NCBI GenBank assembly: GCA_964547485.1
Contig: CAZJNU010000003.1
Span: forward strand, 18,752-82,751
Origin: an uncultured Actinomycetes bacterium
Lineage (GTDB): Bacteria > Actinomycetota > Actinomycetes > S36-B12 > UBA10799
Direction: 5' to 3'
DNA length: 64,000 nt
The notes under the pieces are model-generated. The model was not told the DNA's origin, ran no database searches, and worked only from the letters and a program-made list of their open reading frames with translations. Position 1 is the first letter of the stretch; each line of letters begins with the position of its first letter. Shown piece by piece: positions 18,140-24,536 of this stretch. The position numbers and the translations under genes are program-made.

Positions 18140-18862
18140 ATGGAGTGCATGGCACAGCCTGAATCGCAAGCCGAACCGACCGAGAAGATCAAAGTCAAAG
18201 GCGTTTCGCCACTGATGATCTTCTACGGCTTCATTCCGTACATCATCATGTCGCTGTTCTCAGGACCGAACACTTTCCTGCTCGTCACCTCGATCTCCGT
18301 TCTGATGTCGGCGGCCTGGATGGTCTTCGGCCTGTTGCAGCACCGTGGCTTGCACCAACTCTCCACGGTGGGCACCATCGTGTTCGGGTCGATGCTGCTG
18401 CTGGCGTTCGTCAACCCTGCCTGGGACGCCTGGATTCGAAACTGGTCAGGCACCATCGCCGAGATCTCGCTGGTGTTGACGGCATTCATCGGCATCCTGG
18501 TGAAGAAGCCGTTCACCCTGTACTACGCCAAGCTCAGCGTCGACCAAGTCCAGTGGGAGAACAACCCCCTGTTCCGAGCCGGCGTCGTCAAGGTGAGCCA
18601 GACGATCACGGCGGTCTGGGGATTGTCCTTCCTCGTCGGAGTGGCCTGCGACTTCGCCCCCGGTGACCTCAAGAACAACATCATCTTCACCTGGATCATC
18701 CCGCTGCTTGCCATGTTCGGAGCCATCAGATTCACCACGTGGTACCCCGAATACCGTCGACAGAAGGCCTACGCCGAGCACCCGGAAATCGTCGAGCAAC
18801 ACCGCGCCATCGCCGAGCAGGCTCAGGCTGCGGCGACCGAGGAGCCCGACACCTCGAAGTAG
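18140..18862 (+). CDS. Membrane protein of unknown function
   Basis: 240 aa with about six hydrophobic segments and KKPFTLYYAK. Strong C/G third-position bias. Confidence 0.75.
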   Translation: MECMAQPESQAEPTEKIKVKGVSPLMIFYGFIPYIIMSLFSGPNTFLLVTSISVLMSAAWMVFGLLQHRGLHQLSTVGTIVFGSMLLLAFVNPAWDAWIRNWSGTIAEISLVLTAFIGILVKKPFTLYYAKLSVDQVQWENNPLFRAGVVKVSQTITAVWGLSFLVGVACDFAPGDLKNNIIFTWIIPLLAMFGAIRFTTWYPEYRRQKAYAEHPEIVEQHRAIAEQAQAAATEEPDTSK

Positions 18863-19042
18863 TGCCGAGGATCGCGCCGGGTCCGCGATGGTTCGGTGTC
18901 ACTGGGGCAGGTCGACGTGCTGCTTGACAGGCGAACCCCGAACTTCTGCTGCTACCGTCTGCGCCTACACCGTCGGAATGACCTTCCGGTCGTTCTGCGT
19001 GCTAGATGCTAGATCGGCCCAATCGGAGGCAACCGAATGCCA

Positions 19043-19864
19043 ATGTCGTCTTTGCCCGAGGACATCAGCCAGTTACGCCCAGCGATGCACCAGCTCAGGG
19101 ATTGGGTCTACGGCGACGAAGTCGATCACCGTCTCTTCGCGGCCTACATGAAGACCGCCCATGACGTTGGCGGCGAACCGGATGCGCCGGTGAAGTACGT
19201 GGAGAAGGAAGAGGAGATCTGGGAACTCAACACGTTCATCACGTGTGAGGTTCTCGGGTGGCGAGGCATCTGGACCTCGGAGGAGCGCAGAAGACTCGGC
19301 AACGTCGATCTCGGGAAGACGCAGTACAGCGGACTGCCGTACTACGGTCGCTGGGTGCTCGCCATGTGCCGACTCCTCGTCGAGAAGCACCACATCACGC
19401 TGCGCGAGTTGACGGACCGGGCCGACGAGGTTCACCAACGGATCGAAGGTGACGACGCCGTCGGCAACCTGCAGGCCGAGCCCTCAGGCACTGGCGATGG
19501 CGCCGGCGTGAGGCGGAATGAGCACCACACCGACGCGATCGGCAAAGGCGACCCGCAGTGCTTCGCCGGGATGGCGGGCGACCCGCGCTTCTCGGTTGGC
19601 GAGTCGGTGCGGGTACGGACGATGCCCGCCCTCTTCTACACGCGGACCCCGGAGTACATGCGAGGTGTCACCGGGACGGTGGTCAGTTTGACGTACGAGA
19701 GCCTCGCCGCCGAGGACGAGGCCTTCGATCGCGAGGATCAACCCCCCGAGTGGTTCTACATCGTTCGCTTCAAGATGGACGACCTCTGGGATGGCTATGC
19801 GGGACCTGCCATCGACACCCTGCAGGCGGAGTTGGAGGAGCACTGGCTTGAGCCGGTGACGTGA
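19043..19864 (+). CDS. scnB: Thiocyanate hydrolase beta-alpha fusion (NHase-beta-like)
   Basis: The N half matches ScnB (HDVGGEPD.P..Y.EKEEEIWELNTF.TCE.L.WRG.WT.EERRR...YYGRW). The C half matches ScnA (GDPQCF.GMAG..F.VG..V...FYTRT..Y.RG.TG...YES.AAEDEAF). Confidence 0.9.
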   Translation: MSSLPEDISQLRPAMHQLRDWVYGDEVDHRLFAAYMKTAHDVGGEPDAPVKYVEKEEEIWELNTFITCEVLGWRGIWTSEERRRLGNVDLGKTQYSGLPYYGRWVLAMCRLLVEKHHITLRELTDRADEVHQRIEGDDAVGNLQAEPSGTGDGAGVRRNEHHTDAIGKGDPQCFAGMAGDPRFSVGESVRVRTMPALFYTRTPEYMRGVTGTVVSLTYESLAAEDEAFDREDQPPEWFYIVRFKMDDLWDGYAGPAIDTLQAELEEHWLEPVT

Positions 19865-19935
19865 AGACCACCTGAGCAGACCACCTTCGTTCCTAATCCC
19901 GAAGCCCTTTCGCAATCCCAGAGAGAGAAGCGTAG

Positions 19936-20658
19936 ATGACCGACTCGGCCGCACCCCACAACCACGAACATCGACCGCCGGCGCCCCAGGTGCACGAAAT
20001 ATCAGACTTCGAGGTGCTCGAGATCGCCTTGCGTGAGTTGGCGATCGAGAAAGGCCTCTTCACTGCAGAGGACCACCGGCGGTACACGGAGTACTTCGAA
20101 ACCCTGGGTCCTGTACCCGCGTCTCGGCTAGTCGCCAAGGCGTGGGTTGACCCGGACTTCAAGGCGCTTGCCCTCGCCGATGGACTCGCGGCAAGCCGCG
20201 AGGTCGGAGCCGACTGGCTGGACGCACCTCCCACTGGCTTCGGCACCCCGAGCGACTTCACGGCGTTCGTGATCTTGGAGGACACCCCAAAGCTGCATCA
20301 CGTAATCGTGTGCACCCTGTGTTCGTGCTACCCGCGACCCATCCTGGGGAACTCACCCGAGTGGTACCGGACGCCGAACTACCGCCGTCGCATCGTGCGC
20401 ACCCCGCGGGCGGTACTCGCCGAGTTCGGTCTGTTCCTGCCCGAGGATGTCGAGATTCGGGTCGAGGATTCGAACTCGAAGAACAGGTTCATGGTGCTGC
20501 CGGTGCGCCCAGCTGGCACCGAGGGATGGAGCGAAGATCAACTCGCCGAAATCGTGACCCGTGACTGCTGCATCGGCATCGCACTGCCAAAGCCGGGCGT
20601 GACGAATGACGCTCCTCGAGACGTTCAACCCGCCGTCAATCCCATTTCAGCCCACTGA
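19936..20658 (+). CDS. scnC: Thiocyanate hydrolase gamma subunit (Co-binding)
   Basis: EISDFEVLEIALRELAIEKGLF, PPTGFGTPSD, and VCTLCSCYPRPILG.SPEWYR.PNYRRR, the Co-type cysteine cluster followed by YPR. Confidence 0.93.
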   Translation: MTDSAAPHNHEHRPPAPQVHEISDFEVLEIALRELAIEKGLFTAEDHRRYTEYFETLGPVPASRLVAKAWVDPDFKALALADGLAASREVGADWLDAPPTGFGTPSDFTAFVILEDTPKLHHVIVCTLCSCYPRPILGNSPEWYRTPNYRRRIVRTPRAVLAEFGLFLPEDVEIRVEDSNSKNRFMVLPVRPAGTEGWSEDQLAEIVTRDCCIGIALPKPGVTNDAPRDVQPAVNPISAH

Positions 20659-20678
20659 AGTTCTCTGAGGGAGACAGG

Positions 20679-21044
20679 ATGTCGACGGACCACAACCCGG
20701 CAAACGCGAAAGTGCCGACACTCGAGCGGATCGTTGAACACGGCCAGGTGTGGCCGGATCTGATGGAGCAGTACGGCGTCGTGAACCCCACCCCGCCCTG
20801 GAAGTCGAGCCTCGACGGCATGTGTGATGCGCTCGACAAGGAGGCAACCGCGCTCCCGCTACTGGAGCGACGCGACGAGGAAGACCTGCTGTCCCAGGGA
20901 GTCTACGAGTCGTTGCCGTACCCGGAGAGCCAACTTGTCTCGCTGGCCCACTCCATGGTGTCCAGGGATCTCATTGCCGAGGACGAGTTGACTCGGCGAA
21001 TGGAGGAGGTCCGTGCGCGGCTTGAGGTCATGGACACCTGCTGA
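20679..21044 (+). CDS. SCNase activator/accessory protein (P15K / NHase-beta N-terminal-like)
   Basis: Immediately follows scnC. VYESLPYPESQLVSLAHSMV..DLI.EDEL..RM..VRARL resembles NHase-type activators. Confidence 0.75.
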   Translation: MSTDHNPANAKVPTLERIVEHGQVWPDLMEQYGVVNPTPPWKSSLDGMCDALDKEATALPLLERRDEEDLLSQGVYESLPYPESQLVSLAHSMVSRDLIAEDELTRRMEEVRARLEVMDTC

Positions 21045-22092
21045 GGAAAGCGGTTCGCAGGCGCCGACCGCCCGACCCGAGCGCAGCCCCCGGTTCCGAC
21101 TCGTAGCCGTCGGCTCGACCGTTGTGCTGCTGAACCTGCTCGCTTGGGGCCTGTATGCGGTGGGGTTGGCAGGCTCAAGCTCATCGGCCGGGATGGCCGG
21201 AGTCGGCATCCTGGCATTCGTCCTCGGCGTTCGACATGCCTTTGATGCAGACCACATTGCCACCATCGATGACTGTTCCCGACTGCTGGTGCGACGCGGA
21301 GAGCGGCCCCTCGGGCTGGGCCTCTTCTTCGCCCTTGGCCATTCCGGCGTCGTGCTATTCCTCGCCATAGTGGTGATCCTGTTCGCCGGCGCCGCCACTT
21401 CCGAAACCATGAGCATCGTGGAGTCCTTCGGCGGGAACCTGTCGGCAGCGGTGGCAGCGACGTTTCTGCTGGTTGTCGGAATTCTCAACCTCAAGGTCTT
21501 TCGATCCCTCTGGCTGGTCCGGACGCAGGCGCGCGCCGGTGCAATACCGACTGCGGAAATGGACGCCATGCTCACAAGGCGGGGGGTGCTCAGTCGGGTC
21601 TTGGGTCCGAGGATGTCCTCGGCGCTGGTCTCCTCTCCTCAGATGATTCCCATCGGGTTCCTGTTTGGGCTCGGCTTGGGAACGGCTTCGGAAGTGGCGC
21701 TGCTGGGGTTGTCGGCGACCTCCGCTGCCCAGGGCTCGGTCTCGCTGGCGGGGCTGATTGCCCTCCCGCTCCTGTTCGCAGCTGGGATGGCTCTCTTCGA
21801 TACAGCTAACTCGCTGATGATGGTGCACATGTACGGTTCGGCGACCCAGGATCGCCGCAGGGTGCGGTTCAACCTGGCGACCACCCTCACCACCGGACTG
21901 ATCGGAATCGCGGTCGGGCTCGTCTACCTGGCGGGTCTTCTGGTGGACCATGCTGGTGCGCAACTGCTGGCGCCCGTCGCCGCCATCGGGGATCACTTCG
22001 AACTGCTGGGATACGCCATCGTCACTGCCTACCTCGTGGTGTGGGTCACCACCGTCTTCGCCGGCAGAGCCTCGGGCCGAGCAAGTCCCTGA
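21013..22092 (+). CDS. NiCoT (HoxN/HupN/NixA) Ni/Co permease
   Basis: Signatures RHAFDADHIATID and GLFFALGHS, about eight TM segments. Start is uncertain. Confidence 0.92.
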   Translation: MRGLRSWTPAEESGSQAPTARPERSPRFRLVAVGSTVVLLNLLAWGLYAVGLAGSSSSAGMAGVGILAFVLGVRHAFDADHIATIDDCSRLLVRRGERPLGLGLFFALGHSGVVLFLAIVVILFAGAATSETMSIVESFGGNLSAAVAATFLLVVGILNLKVFRSLWLVRTQARAGAIPTAEMDAMLTRRGVLSRVLGPRMSSALVSSPQMIPIGFLFGLGLGTASEVALLGLSATSAAQGSVSLAGLIALPLLFAAGMALFDTANSLMMVHMYGSATQDRRRVRFNLATTLTTGLIGIAVGLVYLAGLLVDHAGAQLLAPVAAIGDHFELLGYAIVTAYLVVWVTTVFAGRASGRASP

Positions 22093-22108: not shown

Positions 22109-23482
22109 TCAGGCCCACGATGCGGGGACCGTATTCGTCGCGTCAACCACGTTCACGCAGTCGCTGCGATGCACCGTCAGGGTTCCGTCTCGCAGGCCCC
22201 GAGCCACGATCGCAACCGGTGCCATCGGCGTCGGAGAGCAGCACTGCGCCATTCGATAGGGCATGGCTTCCGCACCGGGGATCGTGACCGTTGCCTGGGT
22301 GGCGCCTTCGGGTGCCGGTGACTTAGGTCGCACCGGGCCGGGCTGCCCGACCGCGGGCTCTGCAGCTCGGGGGGACAACTCCGCGACATCGCGGAGTTGT
22401 CGGCGGATCTTGGTGCGCACGCGCGGCGTGACCACCCACCGCAACCAGTCGGCATTCGGACCCGCCCGCCGACCAACGCGCACCTCCACCGTGTCGCCGT
22501 CGCCCAGCACCGTTGACAAGGCCGCACCCTGACCGTTGATCCTGGCCCCGACACAGGTCGCACCGACGTTGGAGTGGATGGCGTAGGCGAAGTCGATGAC
22601 GCAGGCGCCGCGCCGCAGCACGATCGCCTGACCAGCCGGGGTGTACACGGTCACGTTGTCTGGCACGTCGTTGCCGGCGAGGACCGTCGACAGCCAGGCG
22701 GGTTCACCGTCACTGCCAAGCTTGTAGGCCCAGTGCGCCGCACGGCCGAATCTGGCGTCGTGGTGCATGCTGTCGGTGCGGATCTGCACCTCGACGCGTC
22801 TGGCATCCTCCGTGACGACGATGTGCAGCGAGGAGTACCCCGAGGCCTTGGCGCGCGCCACGTAGTCACGCCAGCCGCTGGCATCGAAGTCATGGCGCGA
22901 CGCGATACCCGAGACGGCCTCGTAGCACGTCGGGGTGTCTGCGACGACAAGCCGGACACCCAGCAGGTCATGGAGGTTCAGCAGGCGAGCGAGGTCGCCG
23001 CCGGATTTCGCCCACGCGCTCTGTGGCGACTTCACCCGATGCTCCACCTGCGTCACCTCGACGCCGGTCTGCGCCGCGAGGCGCGCGGCCACGCCGGCAA
23101 GCCAGTGGGACATCGCCGGGTAGTCGACGACTGCGACGATGCGTTGGTAGTCCATTGGCCGTTGCAGTCGAAAACAATGCTCACCGATGGCCCGGCTCAG
23201 GTCGTCGTCTCCGAGACGCTCGGCCAGGATCGCGTGCACGCCGGTCGCTACGTCCACGAGGCTATCCATCGTCACACCTGCGTCGTCGAGCATCTCGCGC
23301 AGCGGGGTGGGTTCACCGGCAAGGGTCGACGCGACACGGCCCAAGTGCTCTCGCAACACGTGGGGATCGCCAGCTTTGGCGGCGATGCTGGCAAGCATGT
23401 CCGTGGCCGCGAGTCGATCTCTGTTGAGCAGCAGGGTGCACAACTGTGCGTCGAGTGCGTCCTGGCCCGAAGCTGCGTTCAA
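22109..23482 (-). CDS. RelA/SpoT homolog: synthetase + TGS + helical + Zn-finger, no HD hydrolase and no ACT
   Basis: RVKS..SAWAK, HDLLGVR, DY....K.SGY.SLH, EVQIRT..MH..A..G.AAHW.YK, TGS (VYTP.G...DFAYAIHSNVG), CC..P...VHR.DC. Confidence 0.85.
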   Translation of the reverse strand: MNAASGQDALDAQLCTLLLNRDRLAATDMLASIAAKAGDPHVLREHLGRVASTLAGEPTPLREMLDDAGVTMDSLVDVATGVHAILAERLGDDDLSRAIGEHCFRLQRPMDYQRIVAVVDYPAMSHWLAGVAARLAAQTGVEVTQVEHRVKSPQSAWAKSGGDLARLLNLHDLLGVRLVVADTPTCYEAVSGIASRHDFDASGWRDYVARAKASGYSSLHIVVTEDARRVEVQIRTDSMHHDARFGRAAHWAYKLGSDGEPAWLSTVLAGNDVPDNVTVYTPAGQAIVLRRGACVIDFAYAIHSNVGATCVGARINGQGAALSTVLGDGDTVEVRVGRRAGPNADWLRWVVTPRVRTKIRRQLRDVAELSPRAAEPAVGQPGPVRPKSPAPEGATQATVTIPGAEAMPYRMAQCCSPTPMAPVAIVARGLRDGTLTVHRSDCVNVVDATNTVPASWA

Positions 23483-23796: not shown

Positions 23797-24255
23797 ATGG
23801 CTAAGAACGGAGGCGGGGTCATCTTGGTGGGGGTGGATGGCTCACCCGCCAGCCTGGAGGCGCTCACGTGGGCCGCTGAAGAGGCCAAGATTCGCCGAGC
23901 GGAATTGCATGTCCTCAGGGTCTGGTCGCTGCATCTGGGCGGCACCAGCGTCGGCGGCACGCCAGCGCCGTCGTACGCCGTTCAAGACAGCGGCAAGGCG
24001 GCCAAGGCAGCTTTGGAGCAGTCGATCCGGGAGACGCTGGGCAAAGCTCCGGGGCTTGACGTGCGTGCCTCGGTGGCGCACGGAAACCCGGCGAAAGTCT
24101 TGATCGACACCGCATCGAAGGAGCGGGCCAAAATGCTGGTGGTCGCCAGCCGCGGCATGGGAGGCTTCAAGAAGCTGCTGCTCGGCTCAGTGAGTTCGCA
24201 ATGCGTCGCGCATGCCGCGTGCCCCGTCACCGTCATCCACCCGCGGACCGGGTAG
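23797..24255 (+). CDS. Universal stress protein
   Basis: ILVGVDGSPAS..AL.WA..EA...MLVVASRGMGGFKKLLLGSVS..CV.HA.CPV.VI. Confidence 0.95.
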   Translation: MAKNGGGVILVGVDGSPASLEALTWAAEEAKIRRAELHVLRVWSLHLGGTSVGGTPAPSYAVQDSGKAAKAALEQSIRETLGKAPGLDVRASVAHGNPAKVLIDTASKERAKMLVVASRGMGGFKKLLLGSVSSQCVAHAACPVTVIHPRTG

Positions 24256-24269
24256 CCCACCCGACGTTT

Positions 24270-24536
24270 CCGTCCACGGCGGTCCGCAACAACTTCGCAG
24301 ACGAGGTCGACCAGACCCACGAACGTGTCTACGTCACCCGCAACGGCCGTGACTTCGTGGTCCTACTGTCCAAAGCCGACCTCGATTCACTCGAGGCAAC
24401 ACTCGAGTTGCTGACCGACCAGGCCGCGCAGCAAAGGCTGGCCGACGCCGAGCGAGCCGTGGTCACAGGCGATCTCACCAGTGCAGCGGAGATGGCCTCG
24501 TTGATGGAGGAGCGTCGGCGCGCCAGTGGGGTCTAA
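24270..24536 (+). pseudogene. Phd/YefM (RelB-type) antitoxin, 5'-damaged
   Basis: VRNNF.ADEVDQTHERVYVTRNGR..VVLLS..DLDSLEATLELL.D. There is no in-frame start codon between the usp stop and this region. Confidence 0.7.

What the first reader, a model, noticed from the sequence alone, without database searches (positions are those of the whole stretch)
19043..22092. Complete cobalt thiocyanate hydrolase module with fused beta-alpha subunit and a Ni/Co importer
Seen: four co-oriented genes (scnB-scnA fusion, scnC, activator, NiCoT). Known: Thiobacillus thioparus SCNase has separate beta and alpha chains that together correspond to the single NHase beta chain. CTLCSC marks Co-type enzymes, and YPR (versus YPW in NHase) carries an Arg implicated in thiocyanate selectivity. 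Inference: this actinobacterium hydrolyses SCN- to COS + NH3 using an NHase-like two-chain architecture, a possible evolutionary intermediate. No COS hydrolase gene is visible in the window.
Basis: partly seen in the sequence, partly recalled or inferred. Interest (0 to 1): 0.7.

Follow-up and report, generated by a model that had tools for sequence, protein, structure and literature searches.

The report
Two-chain thiocyanate hydrolase cassette with metal importer

Summary
Window 19037-22092 (+) carries four tightly packed genes:
- a 275-aa chain collinear with T. thioparus SCNase beta, then alpha;
- a 240-aa gamma chain, above the curated thiocyanate-hydrolase cut-off and about 70% identical to PDB 2DD4_C;
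- a 121-aa P15K-type activator;
- a 359-aa NiCoT permease.

Both arginines I recall as setting thiocyanate selectivity are present.

The fusion is not rare. It occurs in 69 of the 80 best gamma loci from species-level genomes (Mycobacterium, Nocardia, Actinomycetospora, Kitasatospora and others), and M. smegmatis MSMEG_6266/6267 has long been annotated this way. I found no biochemical study of a two-chain enzyme.

The YPR motif is not diagnostic, because split-beta nitrile hydratases also carry it. EERRR in the beta half discriminates better.

A rooted concatenated tree favours the single chain as the ancestral state and the three-subunit Thiobacillus form as a later fission. This is a weak parsimony result (2 changes against 3).

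The NiCoT link is unusual. It is kept in a second genus of the same family, there next to resolvase and transposase genes, so the cassette looks mobile and self-sufficient.

One Cab/Rv1284-type beta-carbonic anhydrase elsewhere in the genome could hydrolyse COS.

Verdict: new member of a known kind, modest interest.

The parts
18863..19036 (+). Upstream intergenic region with a GGAGG ribosome-binding site 7 nt before the ATG at 19037. Promoter not identified.
   Evidence: Sequence read. The consensus promoter scan found nothing.
19037..19864 (+). Fused SCNase beta-alpha chain, 275 aa. It corresponds to the single beta chain of nitrile hydratases.
   Evidence: PF21006 + PF02211. 2dd4_B E 4.6e-46 and 2dd4_A E 1e-33, collinear. 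Same protein on 12 contigs.
19064..19468 (+). Beta-type N-domain (residues 10-144). It includes EERRR at 19280-19294, whose first Arg matches T. thioparus betaArg90.
   Evidence: EERRR is in 83/83 SCN-clade rows and 0/32 NHase relatives.
19469..19513 (+). Linker (residues about 145-159) joining the beta-type and alpha-type halves. It is the least conserved internal stretch.
   Evidence: Column conservation 0.55-0.62 against 0.8-0.93 in the domain cores, with some length variation among fused proteins.
19514..19855 (+). Alpha-type C-domain (residues 160-273; the SH3-like NHase_beta_C fold family).
19936..20658 (+). SCNase gamma chain, 240 aa, the metal-binding catalytic subunit (homologue of NHase alpha).
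   Evidence: TIGR03887 368.8 bits, above its cut-off; TIGR01323 210 bits, below its cut-off. 2dd4_C E 1.3e-108.
20311..20337 (+). Metal claw and selectivity Arg: C126-T-L-C129-S130-C131-Y-P-R134, matching T. thioparus C128...C131 S132 C133...R136.
   Evidence: Alignment. The PDB entry 3vyg chain differs from 2dd4_C only by W at this Arg. Coordinates.
20230..20256 (+). Gamma insertion PTGFGTPSD (residues 99-107), shared by all SCN-clade rows and absent from the nearest NHase relatives.
20679..21044 (+). P15K/NhlE-type activator, a putative self-subunit-swapping chaperone: 121 aa, 13.7 kDa, pI 4.4.
   Evidence: No Pfam or NCBIfam family. Present directly downstream of gamma in 79/80 loci. Its family profile matches the beta N-domain profile at 97.4% probability, E 9.8e-12.
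21013..22092 (+). NiCoT-family Ni/Co permease, 359 aa. Its GTG start lies after GGAGGAGG and overlaps the activator gene by 32 nt. Signature HAFDADHI at 21235-21258.
   Evidence: PF03824 E 4.5e-56. TIGR00802 266 bits, below the 333 cut-off. N-terminus conserved from residue 1 in the G010 copies. Coordinates.

Best explanation
The four genes form one translationally coupled cassette that makes a cobalt-type thiocyanate hydrolase with two kinds of chain instead of three. The gamma chain binds Co through the CTLCSC claw. The fused beta-alpha chain supplies the second-shell arginines and the second selectivity arginine. The 13.7-kDa beta-like protein loads Co into gamma and swaps it into the apoenzyme, as NhlE, P14K and P15K do. 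The NiCoT permease imports the Co(II) that this requires. The enzyme would convert SCN- to COS + NH3. The ammonia is assimilated, a nitrogen-scavenging role. The COS could be hydrolysed by the genome's single Cab/Rv1284-type beta-carbonic anhydrase. Shown here: gene content, homology, clade membership, motif conservation and the linkage of the four genes in two genera. Inferred: the metal, the substrate, the chaperone mechanism, the physiological role and the fate of COS. The single beta-alpha chain is probably the ancestral NHase-like state, and the cassette is probably acquired horizontally.
For: - Homology. Gamma exceeds the curated SCNase equivalog cut-off and fails the NHase one. It is about 70% identical to 2DD4_C over 232 residues.
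- Fusion. The fused chain is collinear with 2DD4_B, then 2DD4_A.
- Selectivity residues. Equivalents of both arginines are present.
- SCN signature. The window shares 76 of the 110 alignment columns that separate T. thioparus-type SCNases from all NHase relatives, including a 9-residue gamma insertion.
- Tree. In the concatenated careful tree the window falls inside the SCNase clade (100/100), within the fused clade (95/99).
- Activator. It meets the published criteria for self-subunit-swapping chaperones (PMC3511329): directly downstream, under 17 kDa, weakly beta-like.
- Conserved linkage. Gamma-activator-NiCoT is kept in the same order in a second genus of the same family, at 90%, 78% and 76-79% identity, while the flanking genes differ.
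- Physiology. In M. smegmatis the annotated homologues MSMEG_6266/6267 rise 3.4-3.7-fold under nitrogen limitation (PMC4617892).
- Mobility. Only the window's genome and G010 among 59 relatives have the gamma gene. An IS66 transposase, or a resolvase plus a DDE transposase, flank related copies.
- COS handling. One Cab/Rv1284-type beta-CA is present in the genome. COSases and CS2 hydrolases all belong to clade D beta-CAs (PMC8209446).
Against: - No two-chain SCNase has been assayed in any paper I could search, so SCN- as the substrate rests on homology of 51-65% identity per domain to the T. thioparus enzyme.
- The window differs from the T. thioparus-type consensus at 34 of the 110 signature columns.
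- The NiCoT's metal preference cannot be read from sequence. Its nearest relatives (50% identity or less) sit beside [NiFe] hydrogenase genes as well as cobalamin genes (CbiX, CbiG fusions), and none sits beside an NHase-family gene.
- The beta-CA is unlinked, and it may be only the housekeeping carbonic anhydrase.
- No promoter or nitrogen-regulator site was found upstream.
Confidence: 0.75

Rival explanations
1. The enzyme is a nitrile hydratase, or it hydrolyses some other C-N triple-bond compound such as organic thiocyanates or cyanamide-like compounds. It only resembles SCNase.
For: No two-chain SCNase has been assayed. Thirty-four of the 110 SCN-signature columns differ in the window.
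Against: Gamma fails TIGR01323 (210 against 249.85) and the fused chain fails TIGR03888 (87.7 against 152.2), while gamma passes TIGR03887. The clade with T. thioparus SCNase has 100/100 support on a long stem. Both selectivity arginines and the SCN-specific gamma insertion are kept.
Confidence: 0.12
2. It is not an ancestral state.
For: The first outgroup I sampled, 9 actinobacterial NHases closest to SCNase, has a split beta. Without further taxa, fission and re-fusion then cost the same. Junctions in split loci are only a few bases wide, so a one-base change could fuse them.
Against: With the Gram-negative fused lineage L294 and the single-chain relatives L298 and L300 added, the rooted tree is ((L294 fused,(split SCN, fused SCN)),((single-chain),split NHase)) with classical single-chain NHases outside. 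An ancestral single chain needs 2 fissions; re-fusion needs at least 3 changes. In the beta-only tree L294's protein is sister to the split clade, which gives the same polarity.
Confidence: 0.3
3. The NiCoT gene is a nickel importer placed here by chance or serving another enzyme. It does not serve the SCNase.
For: Only 2 of 80 other SCNase loci have a NiCoT within 5 kb, and only one of those (L083) directly adjacent. Relatives of this NiCoT lie next to [NiFe] hydrogenases in 3 loci. It scores below the TIGR00802 and NicT cut-offs.
Against: Its start overlaps the activator gene by 32 nt behind a strong ribosome-binding site. The gamma-activator-NiCoT order is conserved in two copies in another genus, although everything beyond it differs. 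An unrelated Ni/Co carrier family (HupE/UreJ) occupies the same position after the activator in the L294 lineage. Two close relatives follow cobalamin-synthesis genes.
Confidence: 0.15

Closest known systems
Thiocyanate hydrolase of Thiobacillus thioparus THI115 (scnB-scnA-scnC plus activator P15K; PDB 2DD4)
   Same: Same family and same gene order (beta part, alpha part, gamma, activator). Gamma is about 70% identical. It has the same CTLCSCYPR claw, the same EERRR in the beta part, and the same SCN-specific gamma insertion.
   Different: Beta and alpha are one 275-aa chain here, against 157 + 126 aa there. The host is an actinobacterium and not a sulfur-oxidising proteobacterium, so the likely role is nitrogen scavenging and not energy supply. 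A NiCoT permease is appended. The window's cassette has not been assayed.
Annotated two-gene 'thiocyanate hydrolase' of mycobacteria (M. smegmatis MSMEG_6266 beta / MSMEG_6267 gamma; the same layout in M. fortuitum, M. szulgai, Nocardia, Kitasatospora and others)
   Same: Same fused beta-alpha + gamma + activator layout, at 62-70% (fused chain) and 72-80% (gamma) identity. The M. smegmatis genes are induced under nitrogen limitation.
   Different: Those loci lack an adjacent NiCoT, with one exception (L083). I did not read the MSMEG_6266 sequence itself; its fusion is inferred from there being only two annotated subunit genes and from the 274-aa M. fortuitum homologue.
Low-molecular-mass Co-NHase cluster of Rhodococcus rhodochrous J1 with the NiCoT cobalt transporter NhlF (recalled from Komeda et al. 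1997; not checked here)
   Same: An NHase-family Co enzyme, its small beta-like activator and a NiCoT-family cobalt importer encoded together.
   Different: That enzyme is a nitrile hydratase (YPW type).
Split-beta three-subunit nitrile hydratases
   Same: They are among the nearest NHase relatives of the SCNase clade in the tree, and they share CTLCSCYPR.
   Different: They lack EERRR and the gamma insertion, they pass the NHase alpha cut-off, and their beta is split at the same domain boundary, apparently independently.

Membership tests
Thiocyanate hydrolase (SCNase, NHase superfamily) | Catalytic subunit matches the curated equivalog model TIGR03887 above its cut-off | tested here: met
   368.8 bits against a cut-off of 291.45; same result in the whole-genome search.
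Thiocyanate hydrolase (SCNase, NHase superfamily) | Cys-X-Leu-Cys-Ser-Cys metal claw with Thr at X (cobalt type) | tested here: met
   C126-T-L-C129-S130-C131. That Thr marks Co enzymes is established knowledge and was not tested here.
Thiocyanate hydrolase (SCNase, NHase superfamily) | Arg equivalent to gammaArg136 (YPR) | tested here: met
   R134 aligns with R136. It is not exclusive to SCNases: 9/9 split-beta NHases and L298/L300 also have YPR.
Thiocyanate hydrolase (SCNase, NHase superfamily) | Arg equivalent to betaArg90 (first Arg of EERRR) | tested here: met
   R84 of the fused chain. EERRR is in 83/83 SCN-clade rows and 0/32 NHase relatives. Its role in selectivity is recalled from Yamanaka et al. 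2013 and was not checked here.
Thiocyanate hydrolase (SCNase, NHase superfamily) | Falls in one clade with the biochemically characterised T. thioparus enzyme, apart from NHases | tested here: met
   SCN clade supported 100/100 in two concatenated careful trees.
Thiocyanate hydrolase (SCNase, NHase superfamily) | Three separate subunits alpha, beta and gamma (architecture of the type enzyme) | tested here: not met
   Beta and alpha are one ORF. This describes the type enzyme and not the family: 69 of 80 family loci are fused.
Thiocyanate hydrolase (SCNase, NHase superfamily) | Hydrolyses SCN- to COS + NH3; Co(III) centre with Cys-SO2H and Cys-SOH | not testable with these tools
   Needs enzyme assays, metal analysis and mass spectrometry.
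Nitrile hydratase (EC 4.2.1.84) | Alpha and beta chains pass the equivalog models TIGR01323 and TIGR03888 | tested here: not met
   210 against 249.85 and 87.7 against 152.2 bits.
Self-subunit-swapping chaperones of Co-NHase-family enzymes (NhlE, NhhG, P14K, P15K) | Gene directly downstream of structural genes in beta-then-alpha order; under 17 kDa; weak similarity to the beta subunit (criteria of PMC3511329) | tested here: met
   20-nt gap after gamma; 13.7 kDa; profile-profile match to the beta N-domain at 97.4% probability, E 9.8e-12; criteria read.
NiCoT nickel/cobalt permeases (TC 2.A.52) | NicO domain, with the His-X4-Asp-His signature in an early transmembrane helix | tested here: met
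   PF03824 190.7 bits against a cut-off of 27.7; HAFDADHI at residues 75-82. The subfamily model TIGR00802 is below its cut-off (266 against 333).
NiCoT nickel/cobalt permeases (TC 2.A.52) | Preference for cobalt over nickel | tested here: inconclusive
   Neighbours of the 80 nearest relatives are mixed: NiFe hydrogenase 3, CbiX 2, CbiG fusions 2.
COS hydrolase / clade D beta-carbonic anhydrase | A clade D beta-CA in the genome able to take the COS | tested here: inconclusive
   One beta-CA in the genome. Its best solved relatives are 3las, 6jqd, Rv1284 and Cab. COSase 3vqj matches at E 2e-13 over 70 residues only. Activity on COS is unknown.

The most novel reading that the evidence does not exclude
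The two-chain (beta-alpha + gamma) enzyme is the ancestral form of thiocyanate hydrolase, and the textbook three-subunit Thiobacillus enzyme is a late fission. Two-chain enzymes occur in hundreds of soil and water Actinomycetota species and are nitrogen-regulated in M. smegmatis. They would then be a widespread, unmeasured route of thiocyanate-nitrogen scavenging and biological COS production. This window shows the route packaged as a mobile, self-sufficient cassette with its own cobalt importer.
Probability: 0.4. Interest if true: 0.5.

Novelty: new member of a known kind. Interest (0 to 1): 0.3.

Why it matters
[quoted passage not shown] All biochemical knowledge of SCNase that I know of, or found in the searched literature, comes from three-subunit proteobacterial enzymes. 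Yet most genomic SCNase loci sampled here are of the untested two-chain actinobacterial type. A single expression experiment on a compact four-gene cassette such as this one would show three things: whether the majority form really makes COS from SCN-, whether it needs its own cobalt importer, and whether it is easier to produce than the three-subunit enzyme. The specific locus adds little beyond that. The fusion is ordinary for the phylum, and only the NiCoT coupling and the mobile context are uncommon.

Tried and rejected
1. A gamma-only quick tree placed the window at the base of all SCNases. I rejected this after the concatenated careful trees nested it, with its 88%-identical sister L125, inside the fused clade.

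2. I first took P0139, P0147, P0169 and P0186 (37-43% identity, about 280 aa or longer) for deep fused lineages. Their sequences are frameshift-ridden, so I dropped them.

3. I tried to infer Co or Ni preference from the gene neighbours of the 80 nearest NiCoT homologues. The result was mixed, and no NHase genes were found.

4. I looked for a promoter, a terminator or a GlnR-type box upstream. The scans found nothing, and reading 18863-19036 by eye gave only a weak GTCAC-n6-AGGTC and a GCTAGAT direct repeat. I make no claim from these.

5. I tested whether the upstream 240-aa membrane protein (18140-18862) belongs to the module. It has no homologue in the 80 SCNase loci or in the L125 copy, whose upstream region is readable, so I excluded it. 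G010's contigs end inside gamma, so their upstream side is unknown.

6. I looked for an ortholog of the neighbouring 457-aa RelA-like gene to define an insertion site. No ortholog exists in the genus, so the boundaries remain undefined.

7. Four literature searches for a characterised fused or actinobacterial SCNase found only annotations (details in 11-14, 73, 74).

Full report
**Observation**

The window holds four co-oriented ORFs on the + strand:
- 19037-19864, 275 aa;
- 19936-20658, 240 aa;
- 20679-21044, 121 aa;
- 21013-22092, 359 aa.

The spacings are 71 nt and 20 nt, followed by a 32-nt overlap. Ribosome-binding sites precede the first and the last gene.

Family assignments:
- the first ORF carries NHase_beta_N plus NHase_beta_C;
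- the second carries NHase_alpha and scores 368.8 bits on TIGR03887 (thiocyanate hydrolase gamma; cut-off 291.45), but only 210 bits on the nitrile hydratase alpha model (cut-off 249.85);
- the third matches no family;
- the fourth carries NicO.

Against solved structures, the 275-aa chain aligns first to T. thioparus SCNase beta (2dd4_B residues 16-150, E 4.6e-46). It then aligns to SCNase alpha (2dd4_A residues 12-125, E 1e-33). Ordinary NHase beta chains span both halves. Gamma matches 2dd4_C at E 1.3e-108 over 232 residues and reads CTLCSCYPR at residues 126-134.

The identical fused protein is called on 12 contigs from at least 8 independent samples, each with the same four genes wherever the contig is long enough.

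**Is the fusion unusual?**

It is not.
- A search of 5.8 billion proteins gave 789 relatives. The best 120 are all 266-305 aa and cover both halves. They come from Nocardia, Streptacidiphilus, Kitasatospora, Streptomyces, Mycobacterium, Mycolicibacterium, Rhodococcus, Prescottella, Pseudonocardia, Baekduia and Thermoleophilaceae. Several are already named thiocyanate hydrolase subunit beta, or alpha/beta.
- Among the 80 best gamma loci in one-genome-per-species collections, 69 have the two halves in one frame and 11 have them split.
- Ten of the split loci are MAGs labelled Proteobacteria or Gemmatimonas. The eleventh (L048, Mycolicibacterium sp. CBMA 247) sits deep inside the fused clade, so it is probably a recent frameshift or a sequencing error.
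- M. smegmatis MSMEG_6266/6267 are annotated as SCNase beta and gamma, and they rise 3.4-3.7-fold under nitrogen limitation (PMC4617892; also PMC11001197).
- Four literature searches found no assay of a two-chain enzyme.

The fusion is ubiquitous, but I found no sign that it has been characterised.

**Is it an SCNase or a nitrile hydratase?**

Classical NHases sampled here read mostly YPW. However, all nine split-beta NHases (L112, L116-L123) also read CTLCSCYPR. Seven of those nine were listed above the NHase cut-off; the other two were drawn from the same list. The two single-chain relatives L298 and L300 read CTLCSCYPR as well. YPR therefore marks a larger clade, not SCNases.

The beta half discriminates better. 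EERRR occurs in 83 of 83 intact SCN-clade N-domains and in 0 of 32 NHase relatives. Its first Arg aligns with T. thioparus betaArg90. From memory (Yamanaka et al. 2013, J Biosci Bioeng), betaArg90 and gammaArg136 are the two residues that control SCN- selectivity. I could not read that paper here. The PDB does hold a gamma chain that differs from wild type only by Trp at position 136 (3vyg).

More broadly, 110 alignment columns are at least 90% conserved in the T. thioparus-type clade and nearly absent from NHase relatives. The window shares 76 of them, among them a nine-residue gamma insertion (PTGFGTPSD, residues 99-107) that the nearest NHases lack.

In two concatenated (beta N-domain + C-domain + gamma) maximum-likelihood trees, the SCNase clade has 100/100 support. 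The window, with its 88%-identical sister L125, lies within the fused clade.

I therefore file the enzyme as an SCNase-family member. Activity on SCN- remains an inference.

**The activator**

The 121-aa protein has no family in Pfam or NCBIfam. A homologue follows gamma directly in 79 of 80 loci, fused and split alike.

A profile of these proteins matches the profile of the beta N-domain at 97.4% probability (E 9.8e-12, 81 columns), and the protein weighs 13.7 kDa. These are the published hallmarks of self-subunit-swapping chaperones of Co-type NHases and SCNase: a position just downstream, beta-then-alpha gene order, a mass under 17 kDa, and weak beta similarity (PMC3511329).

**The permease**

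The fourth protein is a NiCoT with the HAFDADHI signature. Its linkage to SCNase is uncommon.
- Only L083 has an adjacent NiCoT among the 80 loci, and only L038 has one within 5 kb.
- None of the 80 nearest NiCoT homologues (50% identity or less) has a convincing NHase-family gene within 4 kb.
- Their neighbours point to both metals: [NiFe] hydrogenase in three loci, CbiX in two, CbiG-methylase fusions in two. Metal preference is therefore unresolved by sequence.

Three things argue that the link is functional here.
- The start codon overlaps the activator gene behind GGAGGAGG.
- Genome G010, another genus of the same family, has two copies of gamma-activator-NiCoT in the same order, at 90%, 78% and 76-79% identity, with unrelated flanks.
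- In the Gram-negative L294 lineage, an unrelated Ni/Co carrier (HupE/UreJ) takes the same place after the activator.

From memory, the R. rhodochrous J1 L-NHase cluster with the NiCoT NhlF is the precedent.

**Mobility**

Of 59 related genomes (same genus, family and order), only the window's own genome passes the gamma cut-off. G010's two hits are cut by contig ends.
- One G010 copy is followed by a Fic protein, a serine resolvase, an HTH_17 protein and a DDE transposase.
- The 84%-identical P0002 locus is preceded by an IS66 transposase.
- The adjacent 457-aa RelA-like gene has no ortholog in eight genomes of the same genus.

The cassette is an accessory, probably horizontally moved unit.

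The host is an uncultured member of class Actinomycetes. Its UvrD2-like helicase is at most 53% identical to anything outside the left-out near relatives, and the best labelled hits are Actinomycetes and Candidatus Nanopelagicales MAGs.

**Ancestral or re-fused?**

I tested that conclusion here.

With 30 actinobacterial NHase loci as outgroups, the nearest NHases turned out to have a split beta. The rooted tree was (classical NHases, (split NHases, (split SCN, fused SCN))). That topology costs two changes under either reading.

A scan of 1.84 billion representatives then gave three further lineages.
- A divergent, clean fused chain (P0126). Its locus L294 encodes a TonB-dependent receptor, the fused chain, gamma, the activator and HupE/UreJ.
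- Two single-chain beta relatives, each with the alpha gene directly downstream (L298 and L300).

With these added, the careful tree is ((L294, (split SCN 100/99, fused SCN 95/99) 92/85) 100/100, ((L298, L300), split NHases) 82/65) 100/100, with classical NHases outside. An ancestral single chain with two independent fissions needs two changes. Any re-fusion scenario needs at least three. The beta-only tree places P0126 as sister to the split clade, which gives the same polarity.

The margin is small and the sampling is thin. I put about 0.65 on 'ancestral single chain, Thiobacillus form derived'.

The linker (residues about 145-159) is the least conserved internal stretch, and the span that contains it varies in length among fused proteins, as expected of a passive tether.

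**Fate of COS**

The window has no beta-carbonic anhydrase. The genome (3.2 Mb, 91% complete) has exactly one, on another contig.

It is a 178-aa Cab/Rv1284-type protein. T. thioparus COSase matches it only over the zinc-site region, at E 2e-13. Known COSases and CS2 hydrolases all fall in clade D beta-CAs, and clade D enzymes are common in Actinobacteria (PMC8209446).

The enzyme could take the COS. This is unproven, and COS may instead escape.

**Verdict**

This is a real, complete and compact SCNase-type cassette. It is a new member of a known kind. The fused subunit is the normal actinobacterial form. The uncommon features are the coupled NiCoT and the mobile context.

Its main value is as a convenient four-gene construct for the first biochemical test of the majority, two-chain SCNase type.

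Noticed in passing
window 22109-23482 (-): A 457-aa protein with a RelA/SpoT synthetase domain and a TGS domain but no hydrolase domain lies convergent with the permease, 16 nt apart. Eight genomes of the same genus have only the canonical Rel of about 770 aa (one open frame is 621 aa), at 36-38% identity, so this short alarmone-synthetase-like gene is accessory too.
   Followed up: partly
L294:1668-8849: In a Gram-negative lineage (P0126) the order is TonB-dependent receptor, fused beta-alpha (282 aa), gamma (254 aa), 126-aa activator, HupE/UreJ metal carrier, TauE-family exporter and CLC channel. This is a second, independent case of a Ni/Co carrier placed after an SCNase activator, here with possible sulfur-anion handling.
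   Followed up: partly
L112, L116-L123 (gamma/alpha claw region): Actinobacterial three-subunit (split-beta) nitrile hydratases read CTLCSCYPR like SCNases, while their alpha chains pass the NHase model cut-off (shown for seven of the nine). The Arg after the claw is therefore not SCNase-specific.
   Followed up: yes
L071, L072, L075, L076, L078, L081, L083, L085, L087, L091, L092: One fused subclade (Nocardia, Hoyosella, some Mycobacterium) has Ala in place of Thr in the claw (CALCSCYPR). This is neither the Thr of cobalt enzymes nor the Ser of iron enzymes.
   Followed up: no
L048:4418-4952: In Mycolicibacterium sp. CBMA 247 the beta and alpha halves are in different, overlapping frames, although the locus sits deep inside the fused clade. 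This is a recent frameshift, a pseudogene or a sequencing error.
   Followed up: no
L070 and L072: A MAG labelled Nitrososphaeraceae archaeon and one labelled Methylocystaceae carry actinobacterial-type fused SCNase loci nested among actinobacterial sequences. This is either binning contamination or recent transfer.
   Followed up: no
L310 and L311 (G010:C230 and G010:C139): A second genus of the same family has two 93-94% identical copies of gamma-activator-NiCoT, both cut by contig ends. One lies next to Fic, resolvase, HTH_17 and DDE transposase genes; the other lies near PrsW-protease and ice-binding-like genes.
   Followed up: yes
L002:1369-1905 (G000 contig C2): The genome's only beta-carbonic anhydrase reads HTDCR after the zinc-ligand Cys, where its three best solved relatives read HTDCG.
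   Followed up: no
window 19936-19995: Gamma starts with a His-rich stretch (APHNHEH) that aligns with the HDHDHDH tail of T. thioparus gamma. It may be a metal-binding tail.
   Followed up: no
window 23797-24536: A universal stress protein gene and an overlapping Phd/YefM-type antitoxin ORF, with no obvious toxin partner seen in the ORF list, lie just beyond the RelA-like gene.
   Followed up: no
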